Part shown: positions 3,486 to 39,706 of the stretch, piece after piece
Layout: every line of letters begins with the position of its first letter
How positions within the stretch are numbered: position 1 is the stretch's first letter
Translations under genes and position numbers: made by a program
NCBI GenBank assembly: GCA_048941625.1
Contig: JBHLNK010000004.1
Location: forward strand, 1,094 to 65,093
DNA length: 64,000 bases
DNA from: Promethearchaeota archaeon
GTDB taxonomy: Archaea > Asgardarchaeota > Lokiarchaeia > Sigyniarchaeales > SOKP01
Reading direction: 5' to 3'
The notes under the pieces: generated by a model
What the model saw: only the letters and a program-made list of their open reading frames with translations
The model's database searches: none
What the model was told of the DNA's origin: nothing

Positions 3486-3490
3486 TATTA

Positions 3491-3667
3491 TTATTTTTCC
3501 CTTTTATGCCATGTGTAGGCTAATTTACTCATATTATAAATGGGTGGAGGAGGTTCTTCTATTAATTTCTTACCAAGACACTTCGCACATAGATATACCT
3601 CTCTATTAACATCAGTAAAGAAGCACATGTACAAGTTTTCCTCATGAAGGCAGCCTTCGCACCTCAT
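3491..3667 (-). CDS. small (58 aa) CxxC...CxxC zinc-ribbon protein, absent from the ORF track
   Basis: Manual reverse-strand translation gives MRCEGCLHEENLYMCFFTDVNREVYLCAKCLGKKLIEEPPPPIYNMSKLAYTWHKREK*. It has an ATG start, a TAA stop and two CxxC pairs. Confidence 0.45.
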   Translation of the reverse strand: MRCEGCLHEENLYMCFFTDVNREVYLCAKCLGKKLIEEPPPPIYNMSKLAYTWHKREK

Positions 3668-22726: not shown

Positions 22727-24670
22727 ATGAGAAATCCTGAAAATCATCGGATTGGATACTATGCTTGTCAATGAGGTGTAAATATAAGAACTAAAGTAGA
22801 CTGTGATGAGTTAGTAGATTATGTGAGTAAAAACTTTGATGATGTTGTTATTGCTAAGAAAAATGCTTTCCTATGAACTGATAATGCTCAGAATGAAATA
22901 ATTGAAGATATAAAGGAGAAAAACTTAAACAGAATAGTGGCATCAGCTTGAACTCCACGTACACATGAAGTAATTTACCGAGGAACTATTGCTAAAACAG
23001 ATTTGAATCCATACTATTTTCAAATGGTAAATGTACGTGAACATTGTTCATGGTGTACAGATACTAAGGAAGAAGCTACAAAGAAAGCAAAATCTTTAGT
23101 GAAAAGTGGAATTGAAAGGGCTAAAAGACTTGAACCCGTCCCAATTAGAACGGTTCCAGTCACTAAAGCTACATTAGTTGTTGGTGGTGGGATAGGTGGG
23201 ATGAACGCAGCTCTCGATCTTGCAAATCAAGGTATCAAGGTATATTTAGTTGACCAAAAGACAACGATTGGAGGACGAATGTCTCAATTAGACCGAACAT
23301 TTCCTACCGACGATTGTGCAATATGAATTTGCGGACCTAAAATGTTGGAAGTCAATAGAAATGAGAACATTGAGTTAATAACTTATAGTGAAGTAAAGAA
23401 AATAGAGGGATTTGTTGGAAACTATAAAGTAACAATTCAAAAAAAACCACGATTTACTACAAAAGAATGTAATGGATGTGGAGCCTGTGCCGAAGTATGT
23501 CCTGTTTATATATCAAATTATTTCGATGAATACTTAGGTGCACGGAAAGCAATAGACATTCCATTTGGTCAAGCAGTACCATTTTTATATGATATCGATA
23601 GAAAAGCATGTATTGAGTGTTTTTCATGTGTAGATGCCTGTGAACTTGATGCGATTGATTTTAGTCAATTACCTACTGATATTGAAGTTGAAGTCGGTAC
23701 AATTATTATTGCAACTGGTTGGGATATATATGAACCCTTTGGAGAATATGGATATGGAGAATTTGAAAATGTCATAACACAAGTCCAATTAGAGAGAATA
23801 CTTGCACCTAATGGTCCACTTGAGGGGCATGTTCACAGAATATCAGATAATAAAAAACCTAAAGAAATTGTATTTATACAGTGTGTAGGAAGTCGAGAAA
23901 CTGAACGAACATATTGTAGTGGTGTCTGTTGTATGCTTGCTTTAAAAAATGGAAGGTTATTACTGGAAGAGTTTCCTGATGCGAATATAACAATATGTTA
24001 CATTGATATAAGAACTCCTGAAAAAGGATTTGAGGAGTATTATGAACGCGCAAAAGAAGCAGGGATAAAGATGATTCGGGGAAAAGTAGGTGAGATCTCT
24101 GAAGATCCTGAAACTAAGAATGTAAAAGTCAGAGTTTATTCATCTTTAACAGATAAAATTGTACTAATTGATGCCGATTTAGTAGTCTTATCTACAGCAG
24201 CACTTCCTTCAGCAGGAACTCAGCAAATTGTAGATGTTTTAAATCTTGATACTAATACATATGGATTTCTTACTGAATCGCATTTTGGTTTATTACCACA
24301 AGAAACAAAGTCAAAAGGTATTTTTATAGCTGGTTTTGCTCAAGGACCAAAGAATATTTCATATTCGGTCTCTCAAGCAAGAGCAGCTGCTAGTAAAGTA
24401 GCTGAATTAACAGCTCCAGGACAAATCGATATTGAATTGATTACTGCTGAAGTAAATAGTGAATTTTGTATTTCTTGTAGACGTTGTGAAAAGGAATGTC
24501 CAAAGAATGCAATAAGGATTGAAAAAGATATTGGAGCATTTATTGACGAAATAAATTGTGATGGCTGTGGAATTTGTGCAACCTGTTGTCCTACACAGGC
24601 AATCGATATCAGATATTATAGAGACCATCAATTATTTGCTGAAATTGATGGTTTATTAGGAGGTGATTAA
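22727..24670 (+). CDS. hdrA: heterodisulfide reductase subunit A of canonical size (647 codons), with four in-frame UGA codons read as selenocysteine
   Basis: One frame is continuous from ATG 22727 to TAA 24668-24670. The only interruptions are TGA at 22772, 22874, 22949 and 23324. Each aligns to a conserved Cys of the in-window paralogues: CHCG->CQUG, YTCSAD->FLUTDN, ASCTPRTHE->SAUTPRTHE, DCAICILAPK->DCAIUICGPK. The rest carries GGGIGG FAD motifs, four CxxCxxCxxxC ferredoxin motifs and CVGSR...YCSGVCC. Confidence 0.85.
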
Positions 24671-24676
24671 AGAGAC

Positions 24677-25138
24677 ATGGAAAATACCTTTAAAATAATT
24701 GTCTTTGCTTGTTTAAAATGAGGTTATAGTGCTGCTGATTTAGCAGGAGTTTCACGATTGAAATATACATCAGCAGTAAAAATAATCAAAGTGAAATGTA
24801 CTGGTAGAGTTGATCTTAAACATATACTTTATTGCATTCGTTCGGGAGCTGATGGTGTGATGATCGTAGGTTGACGTCCTAACGAATGTCAATTCAAAAA
24901 TGGTAATTTTACAGCAGATAGACATGTGGAATTAGCAAATAGAATTTTAGCATCGAGAGGTTTCGGAGATCAGAGAATAAATATGTATTGGTTAAGTGGA
25001 GCAGAGTCAGAAAAATTTGTAAAAAGTGTAGAAGATGCATTAGAAAAAGTAAAAAATTCTGGACCAAATCCGCTTAAATTAGTAAAAAAAGAAGCTAATG
25101 TCGAAAAAAAACTAGTCATAACTACCCCTGCAGAATGA
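24677..25138 (+). CDS. vhuD: MvhD/VhuD-type subunit (hydrogenase delta-subunit family) with two in-frame UGA codons read as selenocysteine
   Basis: ATG 24677 follows a GGAGGTGA Shine-Dalgarno-like sequence. TGA at 24719 and 24872 align to Cys of the MvhD paralogues: CCNWCSYAGADLAG->ACLKUGYSAADLAG and TGCHIGDCHY->VGURPNECQF. The frame ends at TGA 25136, and the next in-frame stop is TAA 25145-25147. Confidence 0.85.
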
Positions 25139-25184
25139 CTCTTATAATAAAATTATAGTTATAAGATGACTAACCTTGCAAGGG
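25126..25184 (+). promoter_or_regulatory. candidate SECIS element (AUGA_AA_GA, eukaryote-like kink-turn layout) overlapping the vhuD 3' end
   Basis: Hand fold. Helix I pairs 25126-25133 (CCCUGCAG) with 25176-25184 (UUGCAAGGG, A25180 bulged). The core is A25135-U-G-A25138 opposite U25167-G-A25169. Helix II pairs 25140-25147 with 25159-25166 (8 bp). The apical loop UAAAAUUAUAG has an A-run on its 5' side. Confidence 0.55.
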
Positions 25185-25254
25185 AAGGGGTTTTCAAATA
25201 GTATTCAATTTAAAATAAGAATTTTAGTAAAATTTAATCCAAAAGGATGGAAAT

Positions 25255-26781
25255 ATGGTTCAAATTTCAAATAATGTAAATTTCAATAGTATATCTCCAA
25301 AAAATTTAATGGATGCAACTTATCAGGCAGTTGAAAATTTTCAGATTAGAGCCTTTTTCGAAGCAAAAGAAGAAATTTTAAAAACTGGAAAGTATAACGA
25401 AGGTGAATTTTACGATATATTAGATGCTCTAATTAATGCAGAAACAGAACGGAAATTAATATTAGAATCATTAAAAGGTAAAAAACCATCATTTTTAGAG
25501 GAAATTGTTAAAATTGTAAAAGAATTTCCAATAGAAAATGTTATCCGTGATATTATTTATCTTAAAGAACAAGGTTTTGTTGAAGAACTTATTGAAATAA
25601 AAACTAAAACAATTATAAAGAAAATAAAAGGCGAAGAGAAAGAAGTTGAAGAAAAAGAATATTATTATAGATACCAAGTCAAAGATCTGCCTGATAACTT
25701 CGTAGAACATTTTTTTGAACCAGTTTCTATTGTGTTTGATTCTGAAGTCTGCTGTCAATGTGGTTGGTGTTCATCAATTTGCCCCGTCAACGCTATAACA
25801 GTTACAGCAGACACTTTGGAGATAGATGATGAAACTTGTATGAAATGCGGTTTATGTTTTTCAGTTTGTCCAAGATCATTTTCAATTGAACAAGCAGGTA
25901 AGACTATAAATAAGCTTGATAAAAATTTAAAATTCTCAGAAAAAATAAATGGTTATATCAATACTTATTCTGCGAGTACTACAAAGGATGATATTAAAAA
26001 AGTAAGACAAGATGGCGGGATAGTAACCTCCTTGCTTGAATACTTACTTAAAAATAAAATGGTTGATGCAATTGTAGCAGTAAAACATTCGAAGGATTTA
26101 TGGAAACCTGAACCAGTTATAGTAGAAGATGTAAAAGATTTATACAAGACAAGTGGTACAAAATACGCCAATGCCTCAACTTTAAGTATTTTAGATAAAA
26201 CAAAAAAGTATGAAAGTATTGCAGTGGTGGGCGTTCCTTGTATGATGAATGCTTTAGAGAAAGGTACAATGTTACCGAGTGGACTACCCTTTTTCAAAAA
26301 CATTAAGTATCGAATAGGGCTTTTTTGTATGGAATCTTTTCCTTATACTGGTGTTCTTAGCTTAATTAATGAAAAATTTCAAAAAGATTTTAATGAAATT
26401 AAAAAAATGGATATAAGTGGAGGTAAATTTATCATATACTTAGAATCAGGTGAAGATTTAAATGTACCTTTAAATGAAGTTAAATCCTATGCACGTCATA
26501 ATTGCCATTATTGTGAAGACTTAACTGCTGATTATGCAGATATTTCTGTAGGATCAATAGGGTCTCCCAGTGGTTGGTCTACTGTAATCACGCGAAATGA
26601 AAAAGGTGAAAAGCTTTACAACGGAGTGATTAAAGCAGGTTTGATCGAATCAAAAAGCTTAGATGAAGTTAAACCTGGACAACCTTTATTAGAGAGGATT
26701 GCAGGTAGTAAAAGGAAAAATTGTAAACCAATCGAATTAAAAAAAGAACAAGAAAGGAGTGGCAACCATAACTGTAACTAA
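25255..26781 (+). CDS. FrhB/FdhB-family iron-sulfur flavoprotein with a roughly 150-aa N-terminal extension (winged-helix-like) and 2x[4Fe-4S] motifs
   Basis: CCQCGWCSSICP and CMKCGLCFSVCP, then VRQDGGIVTSLL, VVGVPCMMNAL, GLFCMESF and CHYCEDLTADYADISVGSIG. Confidence 0.75.
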   Translation: MVQISNNVNFNSISPKNLMDATYQAVENFQIRAFFEAKEEILKTGKYNEGEFYDILDALINAETERKLILESLKGKKPSFLEEIVKIVKEFPIENVIRDIIYLKEQGFVEELIEIKTKTIIKKIKGEEKEVEEKEYYYRYQVKDLPDNFVEHFFEPVSIVFDSEVCCQCGWCSSICPVNAITVTADTLEIDDETCMKCGLCFSVCPRSFSIEQAGKTINKLDKNLKFSEKINGYINTYSASTTKDDIKKVRQDGGIVTSLLEYLLKNKMVDAIVAVKHSKDLWKPEPVIVEDVKDLYKTSGTKYANASTLSILDKTKKYESIAVVGVPCMMNALEKGTMLPSGLPFFKNIKYRIGLFCMESFPYTGVLSLINEKFQKDFNEIKKMDISGGKFIIYLESGEDLNVPLNEVKSYARHNCHYCEDLTADYADISVGSIGSPSGWSTVITRNEKGEKLYNGVIKAGLIESKSLDEVKPGQPLLERIAGSKRKNCKPIELKKEQERSGNHNCN

Positions 26782-28034: not shown

Positions 28035-31000
28035 ATGAAGAAAGTCGGTGCAGTTTTAGTGATTGGTGGTGGAATCGCAGGAATTCAGACTTCTATAGAT
28101 CTAGCAGATTCAGGTTATAAAGTATATCTTGCAGAATCCACAACCAGTATTGGAGGAGTTATGTCTCAATTAGATAAAACCTTCCCTACTAATGATTGTG
28201 CGATATGTATTCTTGCTCCTAAATTAGTACAGACTGGAAGACATGAAAATATTGAAATTTTAATAGGATCTTCAATCGAAAAAATCGAAGGAGCTCCAGG
28301 TAATTTTAAAGTTTATTTAACTCAAAAATCACTTCGCTTAGATCAAAACAAATGTACAGGGTGCGGTTTATGTGCTCAGCAATGTCCAATAGAAGCAATA
28401 GATTTTTTCAATGAGAAGCTTTCTAATAAGGCTGCAATATCTGTAAAATTTCCTCAAGCAGTTCCTTTAGTTTTTTCAATTAACGATAAAAAATGTATTG
28501 GTTGCGGTATTTGCAAAGGAATATGTAAAGCAAAGGCTATAGATTATGAACTCCAAGATAAGTTAGTTAACCTTAATGTGGGAGCTGTGGTTTTAGCAAT
28601 TGGATTTGACGAATATGATCCAACACCTTTAACGGAATTAGGCTACGGTAAAAATTTAAATGTTATTACAAGTATTGAATTTGAACGTATACTTAGTGCC
28701 AGTGGACCACACTCTGGTTTAATAATTCGCCCTTCTGATGGAATTATTCCAAAAAAAATTGCTTTTTTACAATGTATTGGTTCAAGAGACAGAAAACGTA
28801 GAATTGATTATTGTTCTTCAGTATGTTGTATGTATACTACAAAAGAAGCAGTAATCGCAAAAGAGCACATGAATATTATAGAACCGACAATCTTTACAAT
28901 GGATGTTAGAGCATATGGGAAGGATTTTGATAAGTATATTGAACGAGCTAAGGAGGAATATGGAGTTAGATATATAAGGCGTAGGATATCTTCAATTAAA
29001 GAGATACCGGATTCTAAAGATTTAAAGGTTAATTATGAAACAAAGAATGGAAAAATTATTGAAGAAATATTTAATCTTGTTGTTCTCTCTGTTGGAATGC
29101 GACCTAATCAAAAAGCTAAAGATATAGCACAAAAATTAAATATCGAGTTGAATGAATATGGATTTTGTAAAACTGAAACATTTACACCAGTAGAGACTTC
29201 AAGACCAGGGATTTATGTGTGTGGGGCTTTTGCAACACCGAAAGATATTCCAGAAACTGTTATTGAAGCAAGTGCTGCTGCTGGACGTGTAAATGTACTT
29301 TTATCAGAAGCAAGAAATATGCTTATTACAAAGAAAGAACTTCCCGAGGAAATAGATGTATCAGATCAACCACCACGAATCGGAGTGTTCATATGTCATT
29401 GTGGTATAAATATTGGAGGAGTTGTTGATGTTCCTTCTGTAGTTGAATATGTTAAAACTCTACCAAATGTAGTATACGCTGAACATAATTTGTATACTTG
29501 TTCGGCAGACACTCAAACAAATATCAAAGAAAAAATAGAAAAAAACCATCTCAATAGAGTTATTGTTGCCTCTTGTACTCCAAGGACACATGAATCTTTA
29601 TTTCAAGCAACTATTAGAGAAGTTGGTTTAAATAAATATCTTTTTGAAATGGTTAATATTCGTGATCAATGTTCCTGGGTTCATATGCATGAACCTGAAA
29701 AAGCAACTGCAAAATCCAAAGACTTATTACGTATGTCTGTAGCAAAGGCAAGCCAATTAATCCCGTTAAAAGAACAAGAAATTTCTGTAATAGATAAGGG
29801 TTTAATCATCGGTGGAGGTGTGGCTGGAATGTCAGCAGCGTTAAATCTGGCATCTCAAGGTTATGAAATTTTCTTAATTGAAAAGGAAGATTCTTTAGGG
29901 GGTTTTGCTAAAAATATTTACCAGACTCTTGAAAATGATGATGTTCAGAATTATCTTGAAACCTTAATTGAAAGAGTTAAAAATAATCAGTCAATCCATG
30001 TGTTTACAAACGCTGGTATTAATTCAATATCTGGATATATAGGGAATTTTTCTACAGATATAAATTACGGAAATACTAATAAAAATTTAAATCTAGAACA
30101 TGGTATAATCATTGTAGCTACTGGAGCAAAAGAATATCAACCCACGGAATATAATTTTGGGAAAGATAAAAGAATTATAACTCAGGCTGAATTTGAAAAG
30201 AATCTTTTTACCACAGAGAATGTAAAAGAATTGAAATCTATAGTGATGATTCAATGTATTGGTTCGAGAAATGAGGAACATCTTTATTGTAGTCGAATCT
30301 GTTGCTCAGAAGCTATTAAAAATGCCTTAAAGGCAAAAGAAATGAATCCTGATATTGAAATAATTATTCTGTACCGTGATATACGAACCTATGGATTTAA
30401 AGAAAAATTTTATAATTTAGCTAGAGATAAAGGTGTTATTTTCCTTAGATTTGAAGAATCTAAGCCTCCAGAATTAAAAATAAAAAATAAGCAGTTAAAA
30501 TTAATATCAAATAATCCAGATTTAGGAAATCTTGAAATAAATCCTGATTTAATTGTACTAAGTACAGGTCTCGAAGCACCAAAAAATGAAAATGAAGAAC
30601 TAGCAAAAATGTTAAAAGTCCCCCTTAATGAGGATAAATTCTTTTTGGAAGCTCATGTGAAATTGAGACCAATTGATTTTGCTACAGATGGTATATATTT
30701 ATGTGGAACGGCACATTCACCTAAAGATCTTAGAGAATCAATTGCACAAGCGAATGGCGCTGCTGCTCAAGCGGTTAAAATTTTAAGTGCTGAAAAACTT
30801 GTGACTTCTGGTCTTGTAGCAGTTGTAATAGAAGAAAATTGCATTGGGTGTGGAAGTTGTATGGAAGTGTGTCAATTTAATGCCATTGAATTAATAGAAG
30901 AAGAAAGAACTTTTGAAGATCTTACAATGATTATGAGAAAATCTCATGTAAACCCTGCACTCTGTAAAGGTTGCGGTACGTGTGGTGCTCAATGCCCTAA

Positions 31001-31076
31001 TTCAACAATAGTTATAAAGCATTTTGGTTTTGAGCAAATACACGCTATGATTTCTGCCCTATTAGTTCAAACTTAA
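28035..31076 (+). CDS. hdrA: giant fused HdrA-like flavoprotein (1013 aa): thioredoxin-reductase-like module + ferredoxin, HdrA N-terminal-type Cys domain, second FAD module, C-terminal ferredoxin
   Basis: VIGGGIAGIQ, DCAICILAPK, CTGCGLCAQQCP, CIGCGICKGIC, CIGSRD...YCSSVCC, ICHCGINIGG, YTCSAD, ASCTPRTHE, DQCSWVH, IIGGGVAGM, CIGCGSCMEVC and CKGCGTCGAQCP. Confidence 0.85.
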   Translation: MKKVGAVLVIGGGIAGIQTSIDLADSGYKVYLAESTTSIGGVMSQLDKTFPTNDCAICILAPKLVQTGRHENIEILIGSSIEKIEGAPGNFKVYLTQKSLRLDQNKCTGCGLCAQQCPIEAIDFFNEKLSNKAAISVKFPQAVPLVFSINDKKCIGCGICKGICKAKAIDYELQDKLVNLNVGAVVLAIGFDEYDPTPLTELGYGKNLNVITSIEFERILSASGPHSGLIIRPSDGIIPKKIAFLQCIGSRDRKRRIDYCSSVCCMYTTKEAVIAKEHMNIIEPTIFTMDVRAYGKDFDKYIERAKEEYGVRYIRRRISSIKEIPDSKDLKVNYETKNGKIIEEIFNLVVLSVGMRPNQKAKDIAQKLNIELNEYGFCKTETFTPVETSRPGIYVCGAFATPKDIPETVIEASAAAGRVNVLLSEARNMLITKKELPEEIDVSDQPPRIGVFICHCGINIGGVVDVPSVVEYVKTLPNVVYAEHNLYTCSADTQTNIKEKIEKNHLNRVIVASCTPRTHESLFQATIREVGLNKYLFEMVNIRDQCSWVHMHEPEKATAKSKDLLRMSVAKASQLIPLKEQEISVIDKGLIIGGGVAGMSAALNLASQGYEIFLIEKEDSLGGFAKNIYQTLENDDVQNYLETLIERVKNNQSIHVFTNAGINSISGYIGNFSTDINYGNTNKNLNLEHGIIIVATGAKEYQPTEYNFGKDKRIITQAEFEKNLFTTENVKELKSIVMIQCIGSRNEEHLYCSRICCSEAIKNALKAKEMNPDIEIIILYRDIRTYGFKEKFYNLARDKGVIFLRFEESKPPELKIKNKQLKLISNNPDLGNLEINPDLIVLSTGLEAPKNENEELAKMLKVPLNEDKFFLEAHVKLRPIDFATDGIYLCGTAHSPKDLRESIAQANGAAAQAVKILSAEKLVTSGLVAVVIEENCIGCGSCMEVCQFNAIELIEEERTFEDLTMIMRKSHVNPALCKGCGTCGAQCPNSTIVIKHFGFEQIHAMISALLVQT

Positions 31077-31094
31077 TTTAAAAGGTGAAAATTT

Positions 31095-31526
31095 ATGTCT
31101 AAATCAAAAAAGAAAATAAGCAAAAAGGAGTTTCACCCTAATATATTGTGTTTTTGTTGCAATTGGTGTAGTTATGCAGGAGCAGATTTAGCGGGAGTTT
31201 CCCGATTTCAATATCCCTCCACAATCAGAATTGTGCGAGTAATGTGTTCTGGTAGAGTAGATCCTGCCTTCATTCTAGAAGCATTTAAAGATGGTATCGA
31301 CGGAGTAATTGTAACAGGATGTCACATAGGTGACTGTCATTATTTGAAAGGAAATGAGTTTGCTAGAGACAGGTTTGAAAATTTTCATAAAATTTTACAT
31401 ATTTTTAACCTTGATAAGAGATTTAGACTTGAATGGGTTAGTGCATCTGAAGGAAAACGATTTGCTGAAGTCATTGCAGAATTCACAAATCAAATTAAAG
31501 AACTGGGTCCACTAAGACCGAATTAG
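31095..31526 (+). CDS. mvhD: MvhD-type subunit (methyl-viologen-reducing hydrogenase delta subunit family), all-Cys version
   Basis: ILCFCCNWCSYAGADLAGVSRFQYP, RVMCSGRVDP and TGCHIGDCHY. Confidence 0.85.
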   Translation: MSKSKKKISKKEFHPNILCFCCNWCSYAGADLAGVSRFQYPSTIRIVRVMCSGRVDPAFILEAFKDGIDGVIVTGCHIGDCHYLKGNEFARDRFENFHKILHIFNLDKRFRLEWVSASEGKRFAEVIAEFTNQIKELGPLRPN

Positions 31527-32076: not shown

Positions 32077-35000
32077 ATGATGGAAGGATTTGTTTTGGTT
32101 ATTGGTGGTGGAATTGCTGGGATACAAGCTTCTTTAGATTTAACAGATTTAGGATTTAAAGTATATTTAGTAGAAAAAACACCTTCAATTGGGGGAAGAA
32201 TGGCGCAGTTAGATAAAACATTCCCCACTAATGATTGTAGTTTATGTATTCTTGCTCCAAAAATGGTTGAGGTGTTTAGAAATCCTAATATTGAATTAAT
32301 GACTTATCATGAGGTTAAAAAAGTATCTGGTAAGAAAGGAAATTTTATGGTTACAGTTCTTAAGAACCCTCGTTATATTGATGAAAAAAAATGTAAGGGA
32401 TGTGGTGATTGTGCTGCGAGATGTCCTAAGATTGAATTTCCTAACATATTTGATATGAATTTGGGTAAAAGAAAATCAGTTTACATTCCGTTTCCTCAAG
32501 CTGTTCCGCCTGTATACTTAATTGATTCAAATTTATGTTTAAAGCTAACCAAAGGAGTATGTGGGGTTTGTGAAAAAGTTTGTAAGGCAGAAGCGATAAA
32601 TTTTGAACAAAAACCTAAAGAAATTAATATTAATGTTGGTGCAATTGTAGTTGCTACTGGTTTTGATACTTTAGGAGAAGAATTAACTTCAAGATGGGGT
32701 TATAGATTTGATAATGTAGTAAGTGCTCTTGAATATGAACGGATTTTATCCGCATCAGGACCATTTGAAGGTCATATTTTACGACCTAGTGATAGAAAAG
32801 AGCCAGAAAAGATCGCATTTATTCAATGTGCAGGATCTAGGGATTTACGTGAAGGAATCCCTTATTGTTCCTCAGTATGTTGTATGTATACTGCGAAAGA
32901 AGCAATTATAACAAAAGAACATTCAGAAAACTCAAAGTGTTTTGTATTTCGGCATGACGTAAGAGCATATGGGAAAAATTTTTTTGAATACACTCAGAGA
33001 GCTCAAGAGGAATATGGAGTAATATATTTCCAAACTAAAATTAGCAGAATAATTGAAGATCCGGAAACAAATGATTTAGTGATACATTATGAAGATCTAA
33101 AAACGGGCGAATTTAAGGATTTTAAGGCAAATTTAGTAGTATTAGCAGCCCCTCTTGTACCTTCAGCTGGAACTATAGAACTAGCAAAGATTTTAGGAAT
33201 CAAATTAGATGAATATAATTTCTTTAAAGAGAAATCATATTTTGATAAAGCTTTATCTTCAAAGGAAGGTATTTTTTTAGCTGGTTTCTGTCAAGGTCCA
33301 ATGGATATACCCGAAACAGTAGCTGATTCAAGTGGTGTGGCTTCTCAAGTTGCAAGTTTACTTAGCAACTATAAGTTTACTGAAACAAAAGAAAAAGCTA
33401 TAAGAATACCAGAAAAGGAGGTAAAGCAATCAGATGAAGCAAGAATAGGCGTTCTCATATGTCATTGTGGAATTAATATTGGTAAATATATAGACATTCC
33501 TAAGGTTATTGAACAGATAAAAAAATTGCCAAATGTTGTATTTTGTGAAGATAATTTGTACTCCTGTAGTTCTGATTCACAAGAAAGAATTAAAGAAGTA
33601 ATATCGGAATATAATTTAAATAGATTTATTGTGGCTTCTTGTACACCGCGTACGCATGAACAATTATTCCAAGAAACCTGTCAAGAAGCAGGTTTAAATA
33701 AATATTTATTTGAAATGGTGAACATCAGAGACCAATGCTCATGGGTACATATGACAGAGAAGGAGCTTGCTACGGAAAAAGCAATTGATTTAATCAGAAT
33801 GGGGATAGCAAAATCAAGATTATTAAAATCGCAAGAAGAAAAAACATTGAAAATCACACAGACTGCGATGATAATTGGAGGAGGTATATCCGGAATGACA
33901 GCAGCATTGAATATAGCTAGTCAAGGATTTAAAGTGTATCTAATAGAAAAAGAGCAAAATTTAGGTGGAAATTTAAAATACTTAAATATGCTATTTCCTA
34001 CTCAAGAGGATGCTTCAATCTTGCTAAATGAAACAATAGAACAAGTAATAAATAATAATAACATTCAAATCTTTTTAAAATCTAATATAAAAGAAATTAA
34101 AGGGTATATTGGGAATTATGACGCTTCAATCATCGATTCAGAAAAGGTTAGCCATGAATTGAAAATTGGAACTATAATTGTTGCCACAGGTGGAAAAGAA
34201 TTAAAGCCTAATGAATTTTTTAATTATACATACACAAATCATAATGTGATTACGCAGCTACAATTAGAACAGAAACTAAAAGATGAAGATCAATCGTGGC
34301 TGGACAAACTTAATCATATAACGACACTTCTATGTGTTAACGCTAGACAAGAAAATGGGATTACCTATTGTTCGAACATTTGTTGTGAAACAGCGATAAA
34401 AAATATAAATATCCTAAAGGAAATAAAACATGATCTCAAGTTGATAGTTCTTTATAGAGATCTTCAGATGGCAAAAAAAGAATTTGAAAGATATTATCGT
34501 GAACGAAGAAAAGACGCCGTTTTCTTGAGATACGACTTAGATCACCCTCCTATCATTACAGAATCAAATGGAGAAAAAGAAAAATTTGAAATTGATGTAT
34601 TTGATACCAATCTTCAGGAAAATATTAACTTCAACACAGACTTAATAGTACTCTCAACACCAATGGTTCCAGCAGACAATTTGAATGAATTAGCACAAAA
34701 ACTTAAAGTTCCTCTAGATAAAAATGGATTCTTTTTAGAAGCTCATGTAAAATTACGACCATTAGATTTTGCGACAGATGGAATCTTCCTATGTGGATGT
34801 GCTCATTGGCCAAAAAATGTTCAAGATTCCATATCACAAGCAAATGGCGCTGCGGGTAGAGCATGCAGATTTTTAAGTGCTGGGGAGATTACAACATCTG
34901 GATTAATAGCAGAGGTAGATCCAGAGATTTGCATAGGATGTGGGACATGTGAGGAAGCTTGTTCATATAATGCAATAGAAATTACAAACTTTGTAAAAGA

Positions 35001-35160
35001 TTTTGAAGAAGTAAGTCTACCGATTAAAAAATCTACAATAAATTCGGGATTATGTAAAGGTTGTGGTACTTGTGCTGTTAATTGTCCAGTTGGGGCAATT
35101 TCTATAAAACATTATGATTTTGAGCAAATTAATGCAATGATTAAGACACTTGCTCTATAA
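32077..35160 (+). CDS. hdrA: giant fused HdrA-like flavoprotein (1027 aa). The start may be the second ATG at 32080.
   Basis: Same motif order as 28035-31076: VIGGGIAGIQ, DCSLCILAPK, CHCGINIGK, YSCSSD, ASCTPRTHE, DQCSWVH, IIGGGISGM, CIGCGTCEEAC and CKGCGTCAVNCP. A close paralogue of 36592-39696. Confidence 0.85.
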   Translation: MMEGFVLVIGGGIAGIQASLDLTDLGFKVYLVEKTPSIGGRMAQLDKTFPTNDCSLCILAPKMVEVFRNPNIELMTYHEVKKVSGKKGNFMVTVLKNPRYIDEKKCKGCGDCAARCPKIEFPNIFDMNLGKRKSVYIPFPQAVPPVYLIDSNLCLKLTKGVCGVCEKVCKAEAINFEQKPKEININVGAIVVATGFDTLGEELTSRWGYRFDNVVSALEYERILSASGPFEGHILRPSDRKEPEKIAFIQCAGSRDLREGIPYCSSVCCMYTAKEAIITKEHSENSKCFVFRHDVRAYGKNFFEYTQRAQEEYGVIYFQTKISRIIEDPETNDLVIHYEDLKTGEFKDFKANLVVLAAPLVPSAGTIELAKILGIKLDEYNFFKEKSYFDKALSSKEGIFLAGFCQGPMDIPETVADSSGVASQVASLLSNYKFTETKEKAIRIPEKEVKQSDEARIGVLICHCGINIGKYIDIPKVIEQIKKLPNVVFCEDNLYSCSSDSQERIKEVISEYNLNRFIVASCTPRTHEQLFQETCQEAGLNKYLFEMVNIRDQCSWVHMTEKELATEKAIDLIRMGIAKSRLLKSQEEKTLKITQTAMIIGGGISGMTAALNIASQGFKVYLIEKEQNLGGNLKYLNMLFPTQEDASILLNETIEQVINNNNIQIFLKSNIKEIKGYIGNYDASIIDSEKVSHELKIGTIIVATGGKELKPNEFFNYTYTNHNVITQLQLEQKLKDEDQSWLDKLNHITTLLCVNARQENGITYCSNICCETAIKNINILKEIKHDLKLIVLYRDLQMAKKEFERYYRERRKDAVFLRYDLDHPPIITESNGEKEKFEIDVFDTNLQENINFNTDLIVLSTPMVPADNLNELAQKLKVPLDKNGFFLEAHVKLRPLDFATDGIFLCGCAHWPKNVQDSISQANGAAGRACRFLSAGEITTSGLIAEVDPEICIGCGTCEEACSYNAIEITNFVKDFEEVSLPIKKSTINSGLCKGCGTCAVNCPVGAISIKHYDFEQINAMIKTLAL

Positions 35161-35311: not shown

Positions 35312-36592
35312 GTGAAGAATATTACTGAAACGACAAAAGTGGATGATTCTGAAGAACTAAAGGAAAATAATGATTCTTATCTCAGTAAAATTTATGAACC
35401 AAATATAAGGAAATTGTTATACAGATGCTATCAATGTGTTCGTTGTAGTGGTGTCTGTCAACTTAGTAAAGTTCAGACTTTCGAACCTAGTAAGATAATT
35501 CAATTGATTTTAGAGGGATTTGAAGATAAAGTTATTGAGAGTGGTATTTTATGGGATTGCTTAACTTGCAATGCTTGTCTTCAAAATTGTCCAGAGGGTA
35601 TAAATTTTGCAGATATAGTAAGAATAGTTAAATATAAAATGCGTAAATCCCACAATCAATCCCCAGATGATTATATTGCTCATAAAGGAATATATACTAC
35701 TATATCAGAAATAATGAGTGAACCTCAAATAAAACCAGAAAGATCTCTAGATTGGGTTCCCAAAGACTGTAAAATTGCTGACGAAGGAGATATTTTGTAT
35801 TATGTGGGATGTCTACCTTATTTTAATTTCGAATTCAATAATTCAGAAACTATAGCTGAAAGTACTTTGAAAATTCTTTGTCAAATTGAAAAAGAACCGA
35901 TTGTTGTTCTTAAAGATGAGATATGCTGTGGACATGATCTGTACTGGGGCCAAGGGAAATTTGATGCTTTTATCAATTTAGCAAAAAAAAATGTTAAAAG
36001 ACTTGAAAAAACAAGAGCTAAAACTATCGTGACTGCCTGTGCTGAATGCTATAGAACGTTGAAAGTCGATTATCCCAATTTATTTGATGATTTCAAACGA
36101 AAATTCAATGTTAAACATTTAATTGAATATATTTATGAAAAATGGAAGGAAGGAAAAATTGAATTCAAGAATCCAAATCAGGGAGAACTAAAGATCCCTT
36201 TTACATATCATGACCCCTGTAGATTAAGCAGGTTTTTACCTAAAGATAGTAATATAATTGAAAATGTTCGCGAGATTTTTAATCATTTAAAAACATTAGG
36301 TTATCAATTTAATGAAATGGTTCATAGTAAGACAGATGCCTTATGTTGTGGAGTTAATTCTTGGATGAATTGCAATGATCGGTCAAAAGCGTTAAGATAT
36401 AAAAGACTTCTAGAGGCAAAAGATGTAGGAGAAATAATGGTCACCTCATGTCCTAAATGTAAAATGCATTTATCCTGTTTACAAAATGATTACGAAGACA
36501 TTTCTTCAATTGAAATTGTAGATTTTTCTGAATTTTTAGTAGGATTCATCCTTATCGTAGATTCAAATAACAAAGGGGTGAGTGAAGGATAA
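35312..36592 (+). CDS. HdrC-HdrB fusion (HdrD-like) iron-sulfur protein, paralogue of 26759-28018
   Basis: CYQCVRCSGVC, CLTCNACLQNCP, CCGHDLYWG, DPCRLSR and CCGVNSW. Its stop overlaps the next ATG (TAATG). Confidence 0.8.
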   Translation: MKNITETTKVDDSEELKENNDSYLSKIYEPNIRKLLYRCYQCVRCSGVCQLSKVQTFEPSKIIQLILEGFEDKVIESGILWDCLTCNACLQNCPEGINFADIVRIVKYKMRKSHNQSPDDYIAHKGIYTTISEIMSEPQIKPERSLDWVPKDCKIADEGDILYYVGCLPYFNFEFNNSETIAESTLKILCQIEKEPIVVLKDEICCGHDLYWGQGKFDAFINLAKKNVKRLEKTRAKTIVTACAECYRTLKVDYPNLFDDFKRKFNVKHLIEYIYEKWKEGKIEFKNPNQGELKIPFTYHDPCRLSRFLPKDSNIIENVREIFNHLKTLGYQFNEMVHSKTDALCCGVNSWMNCNDRSKALRYKRLLEAKDVGEIMVTSCPKCKMHLSCLQNDYEDISSIEIVDFSEFLVGFILIVDSNNKGVSEG

Positions 36593-39500
36593 TGGAAGGG
36601 TCAGTGCTCGTTATTGGAGGAGGTATAGCTGGAATTCAAATTTCTCTTGATCTTACAGAATTAGGATTTAAAGTTTATTTGGTAGAAAAGTCGCCTTCAA
36701 TTGGAGGTAGAATGGCTCAATTGGATAAAACCTTTCCAACTTTAGATTGTTCACTATGTATATTAGCTCCTAAGATGGTAGAGGTATTTCGTAATCCAAA
36801 TGTAGAATTAATGACCTATCATGAAGTATTGAAAATAGATGGTAAACCAGGAAATTTTACAGCAAAAATCCTAAAAAAACCCCGATATATAGATGAAACA
36901 AAATGTAAGGGATGCGGAGAGTGTAGTGCTAAGTGTCCTAAAATTATGGCTCCTAATCCTTTTGAAATGAATATTGGAAAAAGAAAGTCTGTTTATATTC
37001 CTTTTCCTCAAGCAGTGCCCCCAATTTATTTAATTGACCCGGAAATGTGCTTGTATTTAACCAAAGGAGTATGTCAAATTTGTAAAAAAGCATGTCCTGC
37101 TGAAGCTATTGACTTTGAGCAAAAACCAGAAGAATTTGAAATAAAAATTGGTGCTGTTGTAGTTGCCACTGGCTTTGAAATGCCCGTTGAACAATTATCT
37201 TCAAGATGGGGTTACAGATTTGAGAATGTAGTAAGTGCTCTTGAATATGAAAGAATATTATGTGCCTCTGGACCATTTGGTGGTCATGTCAAACGTCTAA
37301 GTGATGAAGAAGAACCTGAAGTAATTGCTTTTGTTCAATGTGCTGGTTCCAGAGATCTTCACGAAAATGTACCCTTTTGTTCAAGTGTTTGTTGTACTTA
37401 TACTGCAAAGCAAGCTATAATTACTCAAGAACACTCTGATAGATCTGAATGCTACGTATTTCGACATGATATAAGGGCATATGGTAAAAATTTCTATGAG
37501 TTTACACAAAGAGCTCAGGAAGAATATGGAGTGAAATACTTTCAATCAAAAATAAGTGTTATTGAAGAAGAACCACAAACAAAGGATCTAATTATTCATT
37601 ATGAGGATTTAAAAACTGGAGAATTCAAAGACTTTCGTGCCAATTTGGTGGTTTTAGCCTCTCCTTTAGTGCCATCCAAAGGGGTTAGAGAGTTAGGAAG
37701 TTCTCTTGGAATTGAATTAGATAAATATGATTTTTTTAAAGAAAAATCTTATTTTGATAAACTAAAGTCTTCTAGAGATGGAATATATCTATGTGGATTT
37801 TGTCAAGGTCCGATGGATATTCCAGAAACTGTTGCAGATGCTAGCGGAGTAGCTGCTCAAATTGCTGATTTATTAAATTCTGTTAAATTTACACAGATGA
37901 AGGAGAAAAAATTTGATGTACCAGAGAAAGAAATTAAGATCACAGATGAGCCAAGAATAGGTGTTATGGTATGCCATTGCGGTATTAATATTGGTAATTA
38001 TGTTGATGTTCCTAGAGTTGTGGAATATGTCAAAAAATTACCAAATGTTGTAGTATGTGAAGCTAATCTTTATTCTTGTTCTTCTGATTCTCAAATAAGA
38101 ATTAAGGAATTAATTGATGAATATAATTTAAATCGATTTATTGTAGCATCCTGTACCCCTAGAACTCATGAATCTTTATTTCAAGAAACATGCCAAGAAG
38201 GTGGTCTGAATAAATATCTTTTTGAGCTTGTAAATATTCGAGATCAATGCTCCTGGGTTCATATGACTGAAAAAGTGGCGGCAACAGAAAAAGCAATTGA
38301 TTTAATTAGAATGCATGTAGCCAAATCAAAATTGTTAAAACCCCAGAGAGAAGATAAAATTGATATTACACATACTGCACTAGTCATTGGTGGAGGTATT
38401 TCTGGTATTACAGCTGCTCTTAATACAGCAAATCAAGGATTTAAAACAATTCTAGTTGAAAAAGAAAATGAATTAGGAGGAAATTTGAGATATCTAAATG
38501 TATTATATCCTGTCCATAAAAACGCTTTAGAGTTACTAAATGAATTAAACGAAAGAGTTGATAAAAATAATAATATTCAGGTTTTTCTAAATGCAGCAGT
38601 TAAAGATATCAGAGGGTATGTAGGGAATTATAATGTTATAATAAACGATTCAGACAATAATGCTCATGAGTTAAAGATTGGTACTATTATAGTAGCCACA
38701 GGAGGTCAAGAGTTTAAACCAATAGGTCTTTTTGGCTATGATGGAAAAAATAAGAATGTTATAACTCAATTGGAGTTAGAAAAGCAATTGCAGAATAAGG
38801 ATAATAAATGGTTAGATAATATTAATCGTGTAACGGTCATTTTATGTGTGAATGCAAGACAAAATGAAGGTATAACATATTGTTCTAACATTTGTTGTGC
38901 GACTTCACTGAAAAATGTAAGAATACTAAAAGAATTAAAACCTGAGTTAGAAATTATAGTAATCTACAGAGATTTACAAATGGCTAAAAAAGAATTTGAG
39001 GAGTATTACCGTGAACGACGGAAAGATGCGATATTTCTCAGGTATGATTTAGATAGTCTTCCAGAAGTAAAAAAAAAGAAAGGGATTGATAAGTTTCAAA
39101 TCACAGTTTTTGATACTAATTTAAAAGATACCATTGAGTATGAGACTGATTTAGTTATCCTATCGACACCTATGATTCCTGCAGATAACTTAAAAGAATT
39201 AGCAATGATGCTAAAAGTTCCTTTAGATAAAAATGGTTTCTTTTTGGAAGCTCATGTTAAACTACGCCCATTAGATTTTGCGACAGATGGAATATTTCTA
39301 TGTGGTTGTGCACAATGGCCAAAAAATATACAAGATTCAATTGCACAAGCGAATGGTGCATCAGGAAGATCAAGTAGATTCCTTAGTGCTGATAAGATTA
39401 CTACTTCAGGTTTAGTAGCGGAAGTATCAGAAGATAAATGTATTGGATGTGGTGAGTGCGAAGAAGTATGTCCTTACAAAGCAATAACGCTTGTAGAAAT

Positions 39501-39696
39501 TGATAAAGAATTCGAAGATATTAGCATTAAGGTAAAAAAATCTAATATTAACGCTGCTGTTTGTAAAGGATGTGGTACGTGTGCTGCAACATGTAAAGTC
39601 GGAGCTATTATGGTTAAACATTACGATTTTGATCAGATTTCTACGATGATTGATTCATATTTACTAGAAAAGGAGGAAATTAAGAACGGTTTATAG
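36592..39696 (+). CDS. hdrA: giant fused HdrA-like flavoprotein (1034 aa)
   Basis: Colinear with 32077-35160 over its full length: MEGSVLVIGGGIAGIQ..., CHCGINIGN, ASCTPRTHE, CIGCGECEEVCP and CKGCGTCAATC. Confidence 0.85.
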   Translation: MEGSVLVIGGGIAGIQISLDLTELGFKVYLVEKSPSIGGRMAQLDKTFPTLDCSLCILAPKMVEVFRNPNVELMTYHEVLKIDGKPGNFTAKILKKPRYIDETKCKGCGECSAKCPKIMAPNPFEMNIGKRKSVYIPFPQAVPPIYLIDPEMCLYLTKGVCQICKKACPAEAIDFEQKPEEFEIKIGAVVVATGFEMPVEQLSSRWGYRFENVVSALEYERILCASGPFGGHVKRLSDEEEPEVIAFVQCAGSRDLHENVPFCSSVCCTYTAKQAIITQEHSDRSECYVFRHDIRAYGKNFYEFTQRAQEEYGVKYFQSKISVIEEEPQTKDLIIHYEDLKTGEFKDFRANLVVLASPLVPSKGVRELGSSLGIELDKYDFFKEKSYFDKLKSSRDGIYLCGFCQGPMDIPETVADASGVAAQIADLLNSVKFTQMKEKKFDVPEKEIKITDEPRIGVMVCHCGINIGNYVDVPRVVEYVKKLPNVVVCEANLYSCSSDSQIRIKELIDEYNLNRFIVASCTPRTHESLFQETCQEGGLNKYLFELVNIRDQCSWVHMTEKVAATEKAIDLIRMHVAKSKLLKPQREDKIDITHTALVIGGGISGITAALNTANQGFKTILVEKENELGGNLRYLNVLYPVHKNALELLNELNERVDKNNNIQVFLNAAVKDIRGYVGNYNVIINDSDNNAHELKIGTIIVATGGQEFKPIGLFGYDGKNKNVITQLELEKQLQNKDNKWLDNINRVTVILCVNARQNEGITYCSNICCATSLKNVRILKELKPELEIIVIYRDLQMAKKEFEEYYRERRKDAIFLRYDLDSLPEVKKKKGIDKFQITVFDTNLKDTIEYETDLVILSTPMIPADNLKELAMMLKVPLDKNGFFLEAHVKLRPLDFATDGIFLCGCAQWPKNIQDSIAQANGASGRSSRFLSADKITTSGLVAEVSEDKCIGCGECEEVCPYKAITLVEIDKEFEDISIKVKKSNINAAVCKGCGTCAATCKVGAIMVKHYDFDQISTMIDSYLLEKEEIKNGL

Positions 39697-39706
39697 GTGA
39701 TTGATC

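What the first reader, a model, noticed from the sequence alone, without database searches (positions are those of the whole stretch)
25126..25184. Eukaryote-like SECIS candidate (AUGA_AA_GA kink-turn layout) whose core UGA is the last in-frame UGA of vhuD
This is a hand fold of the + strand RNA. Helix I pairs CCCUGCAG (25126-25133) with UUGC(A)AGGG (25176-25184, one bulged A, one G.U pair). A small asymmetric internal loop follows. A25135-U-G-A25138 then faces U25167-G-A25169, allowing tandem sheared pairs G25137.A25169 and A25138.G25168. Helix II is 8 bp (25140-25147 with 25159-25166). The 11-nt apical loop UAAAAUUAUAG has an A-run on its 5' side. This is the arrangement of eukaryotic form-1 SECIS elements rather than the GAA_A type of methanogens. 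It matches what has been described for Lokiarchaeota. The overlap of the SECIS core with the final UGA and the coding 3' end is an extra twist.
Basis: seen in the sequence. Interest (0 to 1): 0.75.

Follow-up and report, generated by a model that had tools for sequence, protein, structure and literature searches.

The report
Asgard-type SECIS after hdrA–vhuD

Summary
The sequence features reported at 25126-25184 are all present. AUGA (25135-38), an 8-bp helix II, the 11-nt loop UAAAAUUAUAG and GA (25168-69) are there, and the UGA inside AUGA is the vhuD stop codon.

The same element lies at the 3' end of vhuD in 65 of 65 Asgard loci. A covariance model built without the window scores it at 98.9 bits (E 1.6e-24). 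It is the only hit in the 64 kb.

It matches the published lokiSECIS point by point (Mariotti 2016; Huang 2024). One element follows an hdrA-vhuD pair that carries six in-frame UGA codons. The AUGA/stop-codon overlap is also already published.

Covariation supports a different lower part:
- an outer helix, 25124-29 with 25186-91;
- a G-C closing pair (25133-25170) that gives a classical 3-nt-bulge k-turn;
- a conserved 3' mini-hairpin, 25174-84, with an N-G-Y-R-N loop.

The same four-helix layout follows 10 of 10 Prx-like selenoprotein genes.

Verdict: a real feature and a new member of a known kind. Function is inferred, not tested. The three-way-junction refinement is not mentioned in the paper texts I could read and is the only possibly new point.

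The parts
22727..24670 (+). hdrA, heterodisulfide reductase subunit A. It is a selenoprotein gene with four in-frame UGA (Sec) codons at 22772-74, 22874-76, 22949-51 and 23324-26. Its stop codon is UAA.
   Evidence: Translation. Each UGA aligns with a Cys of the Cys-type paralogue 28035-31076: ICHCG, YTCS, ASCTPRTHE and CAICIL. The UAA stop agrees with Mariotti's observation that hdrA never ends in UGA.
24677..25138 (+). vhuD/mvhD/frhD (FlpD family) selenoprotein gene, with Sec UGA codons at 24719-21 and 24872-74. The stop UGA at 25136-38 lies inside the SECIS core.
   Evidence: Homologues called with UGA=Trp show W at both Sec positions and end in ...TTPxE-W-FL, so the E-UGA ending is conserved. 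PF02662.
25124..25129 (+). H1, 5' arm (ACCCCU). It lies inside the last vhuD codons (Thr-Pro).
   Evidence: Pairs with 25186-91. All 6 pairs show compensatory changes over 66 sequences, and 90.9% of cells pair. The best 5'/3' flank helix in nearly every orthologue falls here.
25132..25133 (+). 5' side of the 2-bp C-stem that closes the k-turn (A25132-U25171, G25133-C25170).
   Evidence: G-C in 65/66 sequences and A-U in the remaining one. The second pair is AU 33, UA 9, GU 7. G-C in 10/10 Prx-like elements.
25134..25138 (+). AAUGA. A25134, A25135 and U25136 form the 3-nt bulge. G25137 and A25138 form the sheared pairs with A25169 and G25168. UGA 25136-38 is the vhuD stop codon.
   Evidence: AUGA is invariant in 66/66. 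The UGA is the stop codon in 44 of 61 orthologues, and in the others the stop lies 4-17 nt upstream. The sheared G.A pairs themselves are inferred from the k-turn/SECIS consensus and were not tested.
25140..25147 (+). H2 (helix II), 5' arm. It is preceded by C25139, which faces U25167 (the variable 3b.3n position).
   Evidence: 98.5-99.6% of cells pair, and 5-6 of 8 pairs show compensatory changes. Pair probabilities are 0.93-0.98.
25148..25158 (+). 11-nt apical loop UAAAAUUAUAG.
   Evidence: Loop positions 3-5 are AAA in 66/66. The final G is present in 63/66, preceded by A in 52. This matches the published lokiSECIS loop features.
25159..25166 (+). H2 (helix II), 3' arm.
   Evidence: As for the 5' arm.
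25168..25171 (+). GA of the core (25168-69), followed by C25170 and U25171, the 3' side of the C-stem.
   Evidence: A25169 is invariant, G25168 is G in 58 and A in 8 of 66, and C25170 is C in 65/66. The GAC trinucleotide is also reported for methanogen vhuD SECIS elements.
25174..25184 (+). H3, a 3' mini-hairpin CCUU-GCA-AGGG. It forms the third arm of a three-way junction.
   Evidence: C-G pairs in 61 and 64 of 66. The third pair is UA 30, UG 13, CG 7, AU 5, GU 2. The loop G is invariant in 66/66 and the next base is C in 63/66. It is present in 10/10 Prx-like SECIS elements with an N-G-Y-R-N loop.
25186..25191 (+). H1, 3' arm (AGGGGU).
   Evidence: This is also part of the minimum-energy fold of 25118-25196.
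25191..25194 (+). U-run directly after H1 (UUUU here, U5 in many relatives). It is the likely 3' end of the hdrA-vhuD transcript.
   Evidence: The run is seen in the alignment columns after H1. The termination role is my inference from the known oligo-T termination signal of archaeal RNA polymerase and was not tested.

Best explanation
The element at 25124-25191 is the selenocysteine insertion sequence (SECIS) of the bicistronic hdrA-vhuD messenger. It is of the Asgard 'lokiSECIS' (eukaryote-like, type I) kind.

Folded on the mRNA 3' end, it presents three things:
- a kink-turn: a G-C closing pair, an AAU bulge and tandem sheared G.A/A.G pairs;
- a 9-position helix;
- an A-rich 11-nt loop.

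These recruit the Sec-specific elongation factor (aSelB/EFSec) carrying Sec-tRNASec, directly or through a k-turn-binding protein that is still unknown. Ribosomes then read the six upstream UGA codons as selenocysteine. Those codons lie 263 to 2363 nt upstream of the AUGA motif.

The seventh in-frame UGA (25136-38) lies inside the core itself. A ribosome that reaches it has already unwound H1, the k-turn and part of helix II. No SECIS exists at that moment, and the UGA is read as stop.

Shown here: the fold by covariation, its position, its uniqueness, its link to Sec-coding genes, and its identity with the published family.

Inferred: the sheared pairs, factor recruitment, the unwinding logic at the stop codon, and transcript termination at the U-run.
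For: 1. All published lokiSECIS features are present (published list; present here).
2. The element is conserved at the vhuD 3' end in 65/65 Asgard loci. There is one per locus, and all have UGA at both vhuD Sec positions.
3. The four-helix fold pairs in 92.8% of cells. 16 of 20 pairs show compensatory changes, 0/500 shuffles reach the observed values, and slid controls pair in only 41-59% of cells.
4. The leave-one-out model gives 98.9 bits, E 1.6e-24, against 16.6 bits for the next hit in the window with filters off.
5. The window's two Cys-type hdrA-mvhD modules have no such element.
6. The vhuD-trained model finds the same architecture right after 10/10 unrelated Prx-like selenoprotein genes in other genomes, E 4e-15 to 8e-5.
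7. Where the stop codon lies upstream (UAA at -17), the H1 arm and GAAUGA are kept as non-coding RNA. The conserved TTPxE tail is therefore a by-product of the RNA constraint.
8. hdrA ends in UAA and carries four UGA codons aligned to Cys, which fits the published shared-SECIS model.
Against: - No lokiSECIS has been shown experimentally to direct Sec insertion. One tested in Methanococcus maripaludis was not functional (PMC11881835).
- No SBP2 homologue is known in Asgard archaea.
- Rfam gives no hit to any family here, the eukaryotic SECIS models included.
- Thermodynamic support on this single sequence is weak: z -0.5 on 121 nt and -1.9 on 69 nt.
- The alignments used for pair counts A4 and A8 were fitted to the model, so they lean towards it. 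The unfitted MAFFT alignment still gave 91% paired.
Confidence: 0.88

Rival explanations
1. The element is a SECIS folded exactly. This would be a two-helix, eukaryotic form-1 hairpin with helix I = 25126-33/25176-84 and a small internal loop below the quartet.
For: RNAfold of 25100-25220 and of 25122-25190 returns this helix I. Its energy is -12.0 kcal/mol, against -13.0 for the alternative with H1, H2 and H3. Four of its pairs have probabilities of 0.42-0.77 in the ensemble. Two of its pairs, G25130-C25179 and C25131-G25178, are possible in most orthologues: 20-71 pairs in 60/62 and 19-72 in 37/62. They could be a tertiary contact between the junction and the H3 loop.
Against: Across 62 orthologues only 68% of helix-I cells pair. 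Pairs 25128-25182 and 25129-25181 are broken in 44 and 41 sequences, and only one pair shows any compensatory change. The competing H1 and H3 helices covary. With slightly longer flanks the minimum-energy fold switches to H1+H2+H3, at -15.6 kcal/mol.
Confidence: 0.07
2. The element is not a recoding signal. It would instead be a 3'-end element, such as a transcription terminator or mRNA-stabilising hairpin. Alternatively it would be a generic L7Ae-binding k-turn that regulates translation, or a C/D-box-like sRNA.
For: It sits at the end of the transcription unit and is followed by a U-run. Its core is a textbook 3-nt-bulge k-turn, the kind L7Ae-family proteins bind (PMC1874613 abstract). No experiment has shown that a lokiSECIS works.
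Against: It occurs only after genes with in-frame UGA. It is absent after the two Cys-type mvhD paralogues in the same window. It is present after an unrelated selenoprotein family. The invariant AUGA, the loop AAA and the loop-closing G are not features of terminators. There is no Rfam snoRNA or other hit at these coordinates. The sequence GAAUGA...GAC does not match C box RUGAUGA / D box CUGA (read).
Confidence: 0.04
3. The element is a chance hairpin in AT-rich intergenic DNA that happens to contain AUGA and GA.
For: The window is 30% G+C, helix II is almost all A-U, and the single-sequence z-scores are unimpressive.
Against: The pattern is expected 0.005 times per shuffled window. It is conserved, with compensatory changes, in 65 further loci. 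The leave-one-out E-value is 1.6e-24.
Confidence: 0.01

Closest known systems
lokiSECIS, also called the Asgard eSECIS-like structure, type I (Mariotti et al. 2016, PMC4989117; Huang et al. 2024, PMC11227280)
   Same: - AUGA directly before a 9-position stem, an 11-nt apical loop, and GA directly after the stem.
- The loop is A-rich at its start and ends in A-G.
- A single element lies downstream of vhuD and serves the hdrA-vhuD pair, with up to six UGA codons over about 2 kb.
- The element overlaps the coding 3' end, and the AUGA motif doubles as the stop codon.
- hdrA ends in UAA or UAG.
   Different: Nothing in the published key regions differs. The published text models stop at core + upper stem + apical loop. 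Here the lower part is also resolved: an outer helix H1, a G-C closing pair and a conserved 3' mini-hairpin H3. I could not see the papers' figures or supplementary tables, so I cannot say whether these parts are drawn there.
Eukaryotic SECIS, form 1 / type I (Rfam SECIS_1, RF00031 by my recollection of the accession)
   Same: - AUGA...GA core with tandem sheared G.A pairs.
- Unpaired adenines at the start of the apical loop.
- 3' location, acting on distant upstream UGA codons.
- A minimum-distance rule that lets a nearby UGA act as stop.
   Different: - Helix II has 9 positions here, against roughly 12-15 bp in eukaryotes (my knowledge of the family). [quoted passage not shown]
- There is an extra 3' hairpin, so the base is a three-way junction and not an internal loop.
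- No Rfam family, SECIS families included, matches at E up to 10.
- No SBP2 is known in these organisms.
- It overlaps the coding sequence.
Methanogen (euryarchaeal) SECIS with the GAA_A bulge, including the vhuD-specific variant that also carries AUGA...GAC
   Same: - 3'-UTR position close to the stop codon.
- The vhuD versions carry an AUGA and a GAC/AAC around the base of the main stem. This is seen directly in Methanothermococcus locus L066.
- A hairpin follows the GAC there as well.
   Different: There is no GAA_A bulge and no G-C-rich upper stem. A pattern scan of the whole window on both strands found none. A lokiarchaeal SECIS did not work in M. maripaludis.
Classical kink-turn (Kt-7 and box C/D type, bound by L7Ae/15.5K/L30 family proteins)
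   Same: - A Watson-Crick closing pair (G25133-C25170).
- A 3-nt bulge (AAU).
- Tandem G.A/A.G, followed by a variable 3b.3n position and then a regular helix.
   Different: The C-stem is only 2 bp long and opens straight into a three-way junction. Binding by L7Ae or any other protein is untested.

Membership tests
lokiSECIS / Asgard eSECIS-like type I | AUGA immediately 5' of the main stem | tested here: met
   AUGA at 25135-38. Invariant in 66/66 aligned elements.
lokiSECIS / Asgard eSECIS-like type I | Main stem of 9 positions and apical loop of 11 nt | tested here: met
   The arms are 25139-47 and 25159-67, with 8 Watson-Crick pairs plus C25139.U25167. The loop is 25148-58. The 9/11/9 spacing holds in 61/65 orthologues.
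lokiSECIS / Asgard eSECIS-like type I | Adenine-rich first five loop positions, and last loop nucleotide G, usually preceded by A | tested here: met
   The loop is UAAAAUUAUAG. AAA at positions 3-5 is invariant, and the final G is present in 63/66.
lokiSECIS / Asgard eSECIS-like type I | GA (or AA) immediately 3' of the stem | tested here: met
   GA at 25168-69. GA in 58 and AA in 8 of 66.
lokiSECIS / Asgard eSECIS-like type I | Located at or overlapping the 3' end of a gene with in-frame UGA aligned to Cys/Sec, with one element per hdrA-vhuD pair | tested here: met
   Six in-frame UGA codons. Only one model hit in the 64 kb with filters off, and one per locus in 65 loci.
lokiSECIS / Asgard eSECIS-like type I | Directs Sec insertion at upstream UGA codons | not testable with these tools
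   Needs labelling, mass spectrometry or a reporter. No published functional test of any lokiSECIS was found, and the heterologous test in M. maripaludis was negative.
Eukaryotic SECIS (Rfam SECIS families) | Scores against the curated covariance models | tested here: not met
   No hit at gathering threshold over the window. No SECIS family among the hits at E up to 10 over 24600-25400.
Eukaryotic SECIS (Rfam SECIS families) | AUGA_AA_GA layout: a quartet at the base of helix II and unpaired A's in the apical loop | tested here: met
Eukaryotic SECIS (Rfam SECIS families) | Bound by SBP2 | not testable with these tools
   SBP2 has not been found in Lokiarchaeota (Mariotti 2016).
Methanogen-type archaeal SECIS | GAA_A internal bulge flanked by a lower stem and a G-C-rich upper stem | tested here: not met
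   Pattern scan of both strands of the window gave 0 hits.
Kink-turn | C-stem closing pair, 3-nt bulge, tandem G.A/A.G, NC helix | tested here: inconclusive
   Sequence and covariation fit: G-C in 65/66 with one A-U swap, and AAU-GA / GA invariant or nearly so. The kinked geometry and the sheared pairs cannot be shown from sequence.

The most novel reading that the evidence does not exclude
The Asgard SECIS may not be the simple 'core + stem + loop' hairpin of the published models. It may instead be a three-way-junction RNA with these parts:
- a canonical 3-nt-bulge k-turn, closed by an almost invariant G-C pair;
- an outer helix;
- a conserved 3' mini-hairpin (CC..GG stem, N-G-Y-R-N loop).

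On this reading the mini-hairpin is a second recognition determinant for the still unidentified archaeal SECIS-binding factor. This layout is shared by the hdrA-vhuD and Prx-like families, and by genomes labelled as several Asgard phyla.

It could help explain why eukaryotic SECIS finders and a methanogen host do not recognise the element. A related Prx-like subfamily appears to carry a circularly permuted version, with the AUGA/GA pair on top of the long helix.
Probability: 0.3. Interest if true: 0.6.

Novelty: new member of a known kind. Interest (0 to 1): 0.33.

Why it matters
As an instance, it adds one more hdrA-vhuD lokiSECIS to the hundreds already catalogued, so its value is mostly correct annotation. 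Without it, hdrA would be called as four or five fragments and vhuD as three.

The broader interest lies in the evolution of selenocysteine decoding. Asgard SECIS elements are the proposed link between archaeal and eukaryotic systems, their binding partner is unknown, and none has been tested functionally. Two things here could guide experiments:
- a defined, covariation-backed full architecture (k-turn closing pair, outer helix, conserved 3' hairpin) tells experimenters which RNA to synthesise for binding and reporter assays;
- the stop-in-core arrangement gives a natural test of the minimum-distance rule.

Tried and rejected
- **Rfam.** Nothing at gathering threshold over the whole window. 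At E up to 10 over 24600-25400, only a weak SNORD123 look-alike at 24638-24708 (E 0.27) and a CRISPR-DR39 look-alike (E 9.5), both taken as chance.
- **Origin of the window.** An exact-protein look-up for the neighbouring 508-aa protein found nothing. The closest species representative has only 82% VhuD identity.
Tested and rejected as a conserved helix.
- **RNAalifold on the plain MAFFT alignment.** It recovered only helix II, because length variation misaligned the 3' arms. This was solved by per-sequence helix search and a covariance-model realignment.
- **Methanogen GAA_A SECIS.** None in the window.
- **Second strict pattern match inside hdrA (24071-24105).** It looked significant against shuffles. 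However, it sits on the conserved peptide I[KR]MIRGKVGE.SE[DE]. Its pair count ranges from 1 to 9 across orthologues without compensation, its loop usually ends in A, and the model does not score it. I rejected it as a coding by-product.
- **Other candidate selenoprotein genes in the window.** A search for open frames spanning UGA found only hdrA and vhuD to be convincing. The 9055-9489 candidate lies antisense to a real gene.
- **tRNA-Sec.** No tRNA genes in the window.
- **C/D-box sRNA reading.** Rejected on sequence.
- **Supplement of Mariotti 2016.** Not held. Huang's Table S4 with the SECIS sequences is not among the held files.

Full report
**What is at the coordinates**

Reading 24400-25600 and listing the reading frames shows a gene of the FlpD/MvhD/VhuD family running from ATG 24677 to TGA 25136-38. 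It has two earlier in-frame TGA codons, at 24719-21 and 24872-74 (translation).

- CCCUGCAG at 25126-33 and UUGCAAGGG at 25176-84;
- AUGA at 25135-38 and UGA at 25167-69;
- eight complementary bases at 25140-47 and 25159-66;
- the loop UAAAAUUAUAG at 25148-58.

The UGA inside AUGA is the third in-frame UGA of vhuD and is its stop codon.

**The genes it serves**

Directly upstream, separated by 6 nt, lies hdrA (22727-24670). It carries four in-frame UGA codons, at 22772, 22874, 22949 and 23324. Each falls where the Cys-type paralogue at 28035-31076 has a cysteine. hdrA ends in UAA. The pair therefore contains six presumptive Sec codons, 263 to 2363 nt upstream of the AUGA motif.

Downstream come the following genes (Pfam):
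- a FrhB-like gene;
- an HdrB/C-like gene;
- two further hdrA-mvhD modules that use Cys throughout.

**Is it more than chance?**

On this sequence alone, folding support is modest. The z-score is -0.5 on 121 nt and -1.9 on 69 nt. The motif itself, however, is very unlikely by chance. The strict arrangement is expected 0.005 times per dinucleotide-shuffled window on both strands. That arrangement is AUGA, two 9-nt arms with at least 8 pairs, an 11-nt loop with at least three A among its first five bases and a final G, then GA.

Homologues of VhuD in the large protein collection were mostly called with UGA read as Trp. They end in ...TTPxE-W-(F/I)-L, which showed at once that the E-UGA ending is conserved.

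I fetched 80 loci from species-representative genomes. All 65 Asgard loci that could be read have UGA at both vhuD Sec positions. Of these, 61 carry the strict AUGA-9-11-9-(G/A)A element within 17 nt of the stop.

A covariance model then found the element once in each of the 65 loci and once in the window. A second model, built without the window sequence, scores the window element at 98.9 bits (E 1.6e-24). The next-best hit in the 64 kb, with all filters off, scores 16.6 bits.

**The fold**

Helix II is solid. It pairs in 98.5-99.6% of cells, with compensatory changes in five or six of its eight pairs.

Only 68% of its cells pair across 62 orthologues. Two of its pairs are broken in 41 and 44 sequences.

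A per-sequence search for the best helix between the two flanks pointed almost everywhere to a more distal pairing. Examples are ACCCCU/AGGGGU, ACUCCU/AGGAGU, AACACCU/AGGUGUU and CUCUCUCGU/AUGGGAGAG. It also pointed to a small hairpin within the 3' flank.

The resulting four-helix model is:
- H1: 25124-29 with 25186-91;
- a 2-bp closing stem: A25132-U25171 and G25133-C25170;
- H2: 25140-47 with 25159-66;
- H3: 25174-77 with 25181-84.

On the plain MAFFT alignment the four-helix model pairs in 90.8% of cells (91.0% before the 2-bp closing stem was added). On the model-fitted alignment of 66 sequences it pairs in 92.8%. There, 16 of 20 pairs carry compensatory changes, none of 500 column shuffles reaches the observed values, and partners slid by 1-3 columns pair in only 41-59%. 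The fitted alignment leans towards the model, so the unfitted result is the fairer one.

In energy terms the two folds are close on this sequence. With flanks 25118-25196 the minimum-energy structure is itself the H1+H2+H3 fold, at -15.6 kcal/mol.

The closing pair G25133-C25170 is G-C in 65 of 66 sequences and A-U in the other one. With the AAU bulge and the G.A/A.G tandem, this is the layout of a classical 3-nt-bulge kink-turn. The sheared pairs are inferred, not shown.

H3 has an almost invariant CC..GG stem. Its third pair covaries (UA 30, UG 13, CG 7, AU 5, GU 2). The loop has an invariant G followed by C in 63/66.

**What it is**

The published description of the lokiSECIS (Mariotti et al. 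2016, PMC4989117) lists these features:
- AUGA before the stem;
- a 9-bp stem;
- an 11-nt loop whose first five positions favour A and whose last is an 'ultraconserved' G, usually preceded by A;
- GA after the stem;
- a position close to or overlapping the coding end;
- a single element after vhuD shared with hdrA, supporting up to six UGA codons over about 2 kb;
- hdrA always ending in UAA or UAG.

The window element meets every one of these.

In my sample the overlap is the majority state for vhuD, in 44 of 61 loci. The rest stop 4-17 nt upstream.

In the loci where the stop lies 17 nt upstream, the H1 arm and GAAUGA are retained as untranslated RNA. The conserved TTPxE tail of VhuD is therefore dictated by the RNA.

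**Controls for the SECIS reading**

- The two Cys-type mvhD genes in the same window have no such element.
- There is no methanogen-type GAA_A element anywhere in the window.
- Rfam gives no match. This agrees with both papers, in which eukaryotic and archaeal SECIS finders also failed.
- To see whether the lower part of the fold is peculiar to vhuD, I took Prx-like selenoprotein sequences from Huang's supplement. I located homologues and fetched ten loci from different genomes and metagenomes.
- The vhuD-trained model finds an element right at the end of all ten genes, at E 4e-15 to 8e-5.
- That element has the same four helices:
  - H1 pairs in 90.9% of cells, with 5 of 6 pairs compensated.
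  - The closing pair is G-C in 10/10.
  - H2 has all 8 pairs compensated.
  - H3 has the CC..GG stem and an N-G-Y-R-N loop.

The architecture therefore belongs to the SECIS class, not to one gene family.

**Mechanism**

By analogy with the eukaryotic system and as proposed in the cited papers, the folded element recruits the Sec-specific elongation factor with Sec-tRNASec. Ribosomes translating the bicistronic hdrA-vhuD mRNA then read the six distant UGA codons as Sec.

The UGA at 25136-38 cannot be recoded, because a ribosome with that codon in its A site has already melted H1, the k-turn and the start of helix II. This is the minimum-distance argument of Mariotti et al., taken to its limit. 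It also means every terminating ribosome unfolds the SECIS.

These steps are inferred. No lokiSECIS has been functionally tested in a homologous system, and one was inactive in Methanococcus maripaludis (PMC11881835). No SBP2 homologue is known.

**Novelty and score**

The element is a new member of a known kind.

The outer helix, the G-C closing pair and the conserved 3' hairpin are not mentioned in the text of the 2016, 2024 or 2026 papers I could read. [quoted passage not shown] I could not see their figures or tables, so I treat this only as a possible refinement.

Noticed in passing
window 22727-24670: hdrA carries four in-frame UGA codons (22772, 22874, 22949, 23324). Each aligns to a Cys of the Cys-type paralogue in the same window. 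An ordinary gene caller would split it into several fragments. Together with vhuD this makes six Sec codons on one SECIS.
   Followed up: partly
window 28035-31526 and 36592-40141 (also 32077-35160): There are two further hdrA-like (about 1010-1030 aa) plus mvhD modules, and a third long hdrA-like gene. All use Cys and lack any SECIS hit. The window is thus a cluster of paralogous Hdr/Mvh-type modules, with FrhB-like and HdrB/C-like genes, of which only the first is a selenoprotein version.
   Followed up: partly
window 24071-24105: A second exact match to the strict lokiSECIS pattern lies inside the hdrA coding sequence. It sits on the conserved peptide I[KR]MIRGKVGE.SE[DE]. Pairing is not maintained across orthologues, and the covariance model ignores it. 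It is a coding by-product that pattern-based SECIS finders could report falsely.
   Followed up: yes
L081-L160 (JGI metagenome contigs), about 5-90 nt after the stop of 'MKDKF...-U-PYCRW' Prx-like genes: This Prx-like selenoprotein subfamily has no canonical AUGA-9-11-9-GA element within 250 nt. Most of the loci instead have a conserved element of about 75 nt with three helices:
- GAUUUGG/CCAAAUC;
- a covarying helix of about 10 bp whose apical loop reads N-GAAAA-N4-AAUGA-N;
- a 3' mini-hairpin AAGU-UAGCCAC-ACUU.

The local motif (AAUGA-N-helix / helix-N-GA) is kept but the connectivity is swapped. It looks like a circular permutation of the lokiSECIS. I could not check whether it has been described.
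   Followed up: partly
L070 941-5054 (DATKTP010000045.1, MAG labelled Candidatus Deferrimicrobium sp.): A contig filed under a bacterial MAG carries the same cluster in the same order: hdrA with in-frame UGA, vhuD with both Sec UGA codons, then a SECIS-like three-way junction at about 3408-3482. That element has AUGA, a 10-bp stem, a 10-nt A-rich loop, GAC, a hairpin with CGCAA in its loop, and a 7-bp outer helix (z -3.7). A 508-aa FrhB-like gene follows. G+C is only 34-41%. It is probably a mis-binned archaeal contig, otherwise a lateral transfer.
   Followed up: partly
L063-L065, about 3435-3540: Three Asgard loci carry a variant with a much larger apical region, about 23 nt in place of 11. 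The stop UGA lies immediately before AUGA (UGA-AUGA). H1, GAC and H3 (UCCCU-GCA-AGGGA) are kept. This may be the type II-like form.
   Followed up: no
L066 3415-3470 (Methanothermococcus okinawensis) and L067 3400-3460 (Borrarchaeota): The vhuD SECIS elements of a methanogen and of a Borrarchaeote show AUGA...GAC around the main stem. A further hairpin follows right after GAC: CCUCC..GGGGG, and CCCU-UACGC-AGGG. A 3' hairpin may therefore be older than the Loki-type element.
   Followed up: no
window 25195-25254: The spacer between the SECIS U-run and the next gene (ATG 25255) contains TTTAAAATA at about 25209-17. This resembles an archaeal TATA box about 40 nt before the start codon. The FrhB-like gene may have its own promoter, and the hdrA-vhuD transcript may end at the SECIS.
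   Followed up: no
L161-L171 flanks: The 'FFRGNW-U' Prx-like selenoprotein gene is repeatedly flanked by an Arf/Ras-family small GTPase gene upstream. In several genomes a Sec23-like gene lies downstream. Both are eukaryote-signature proteins of Asgard archaea.
   Followed up: no
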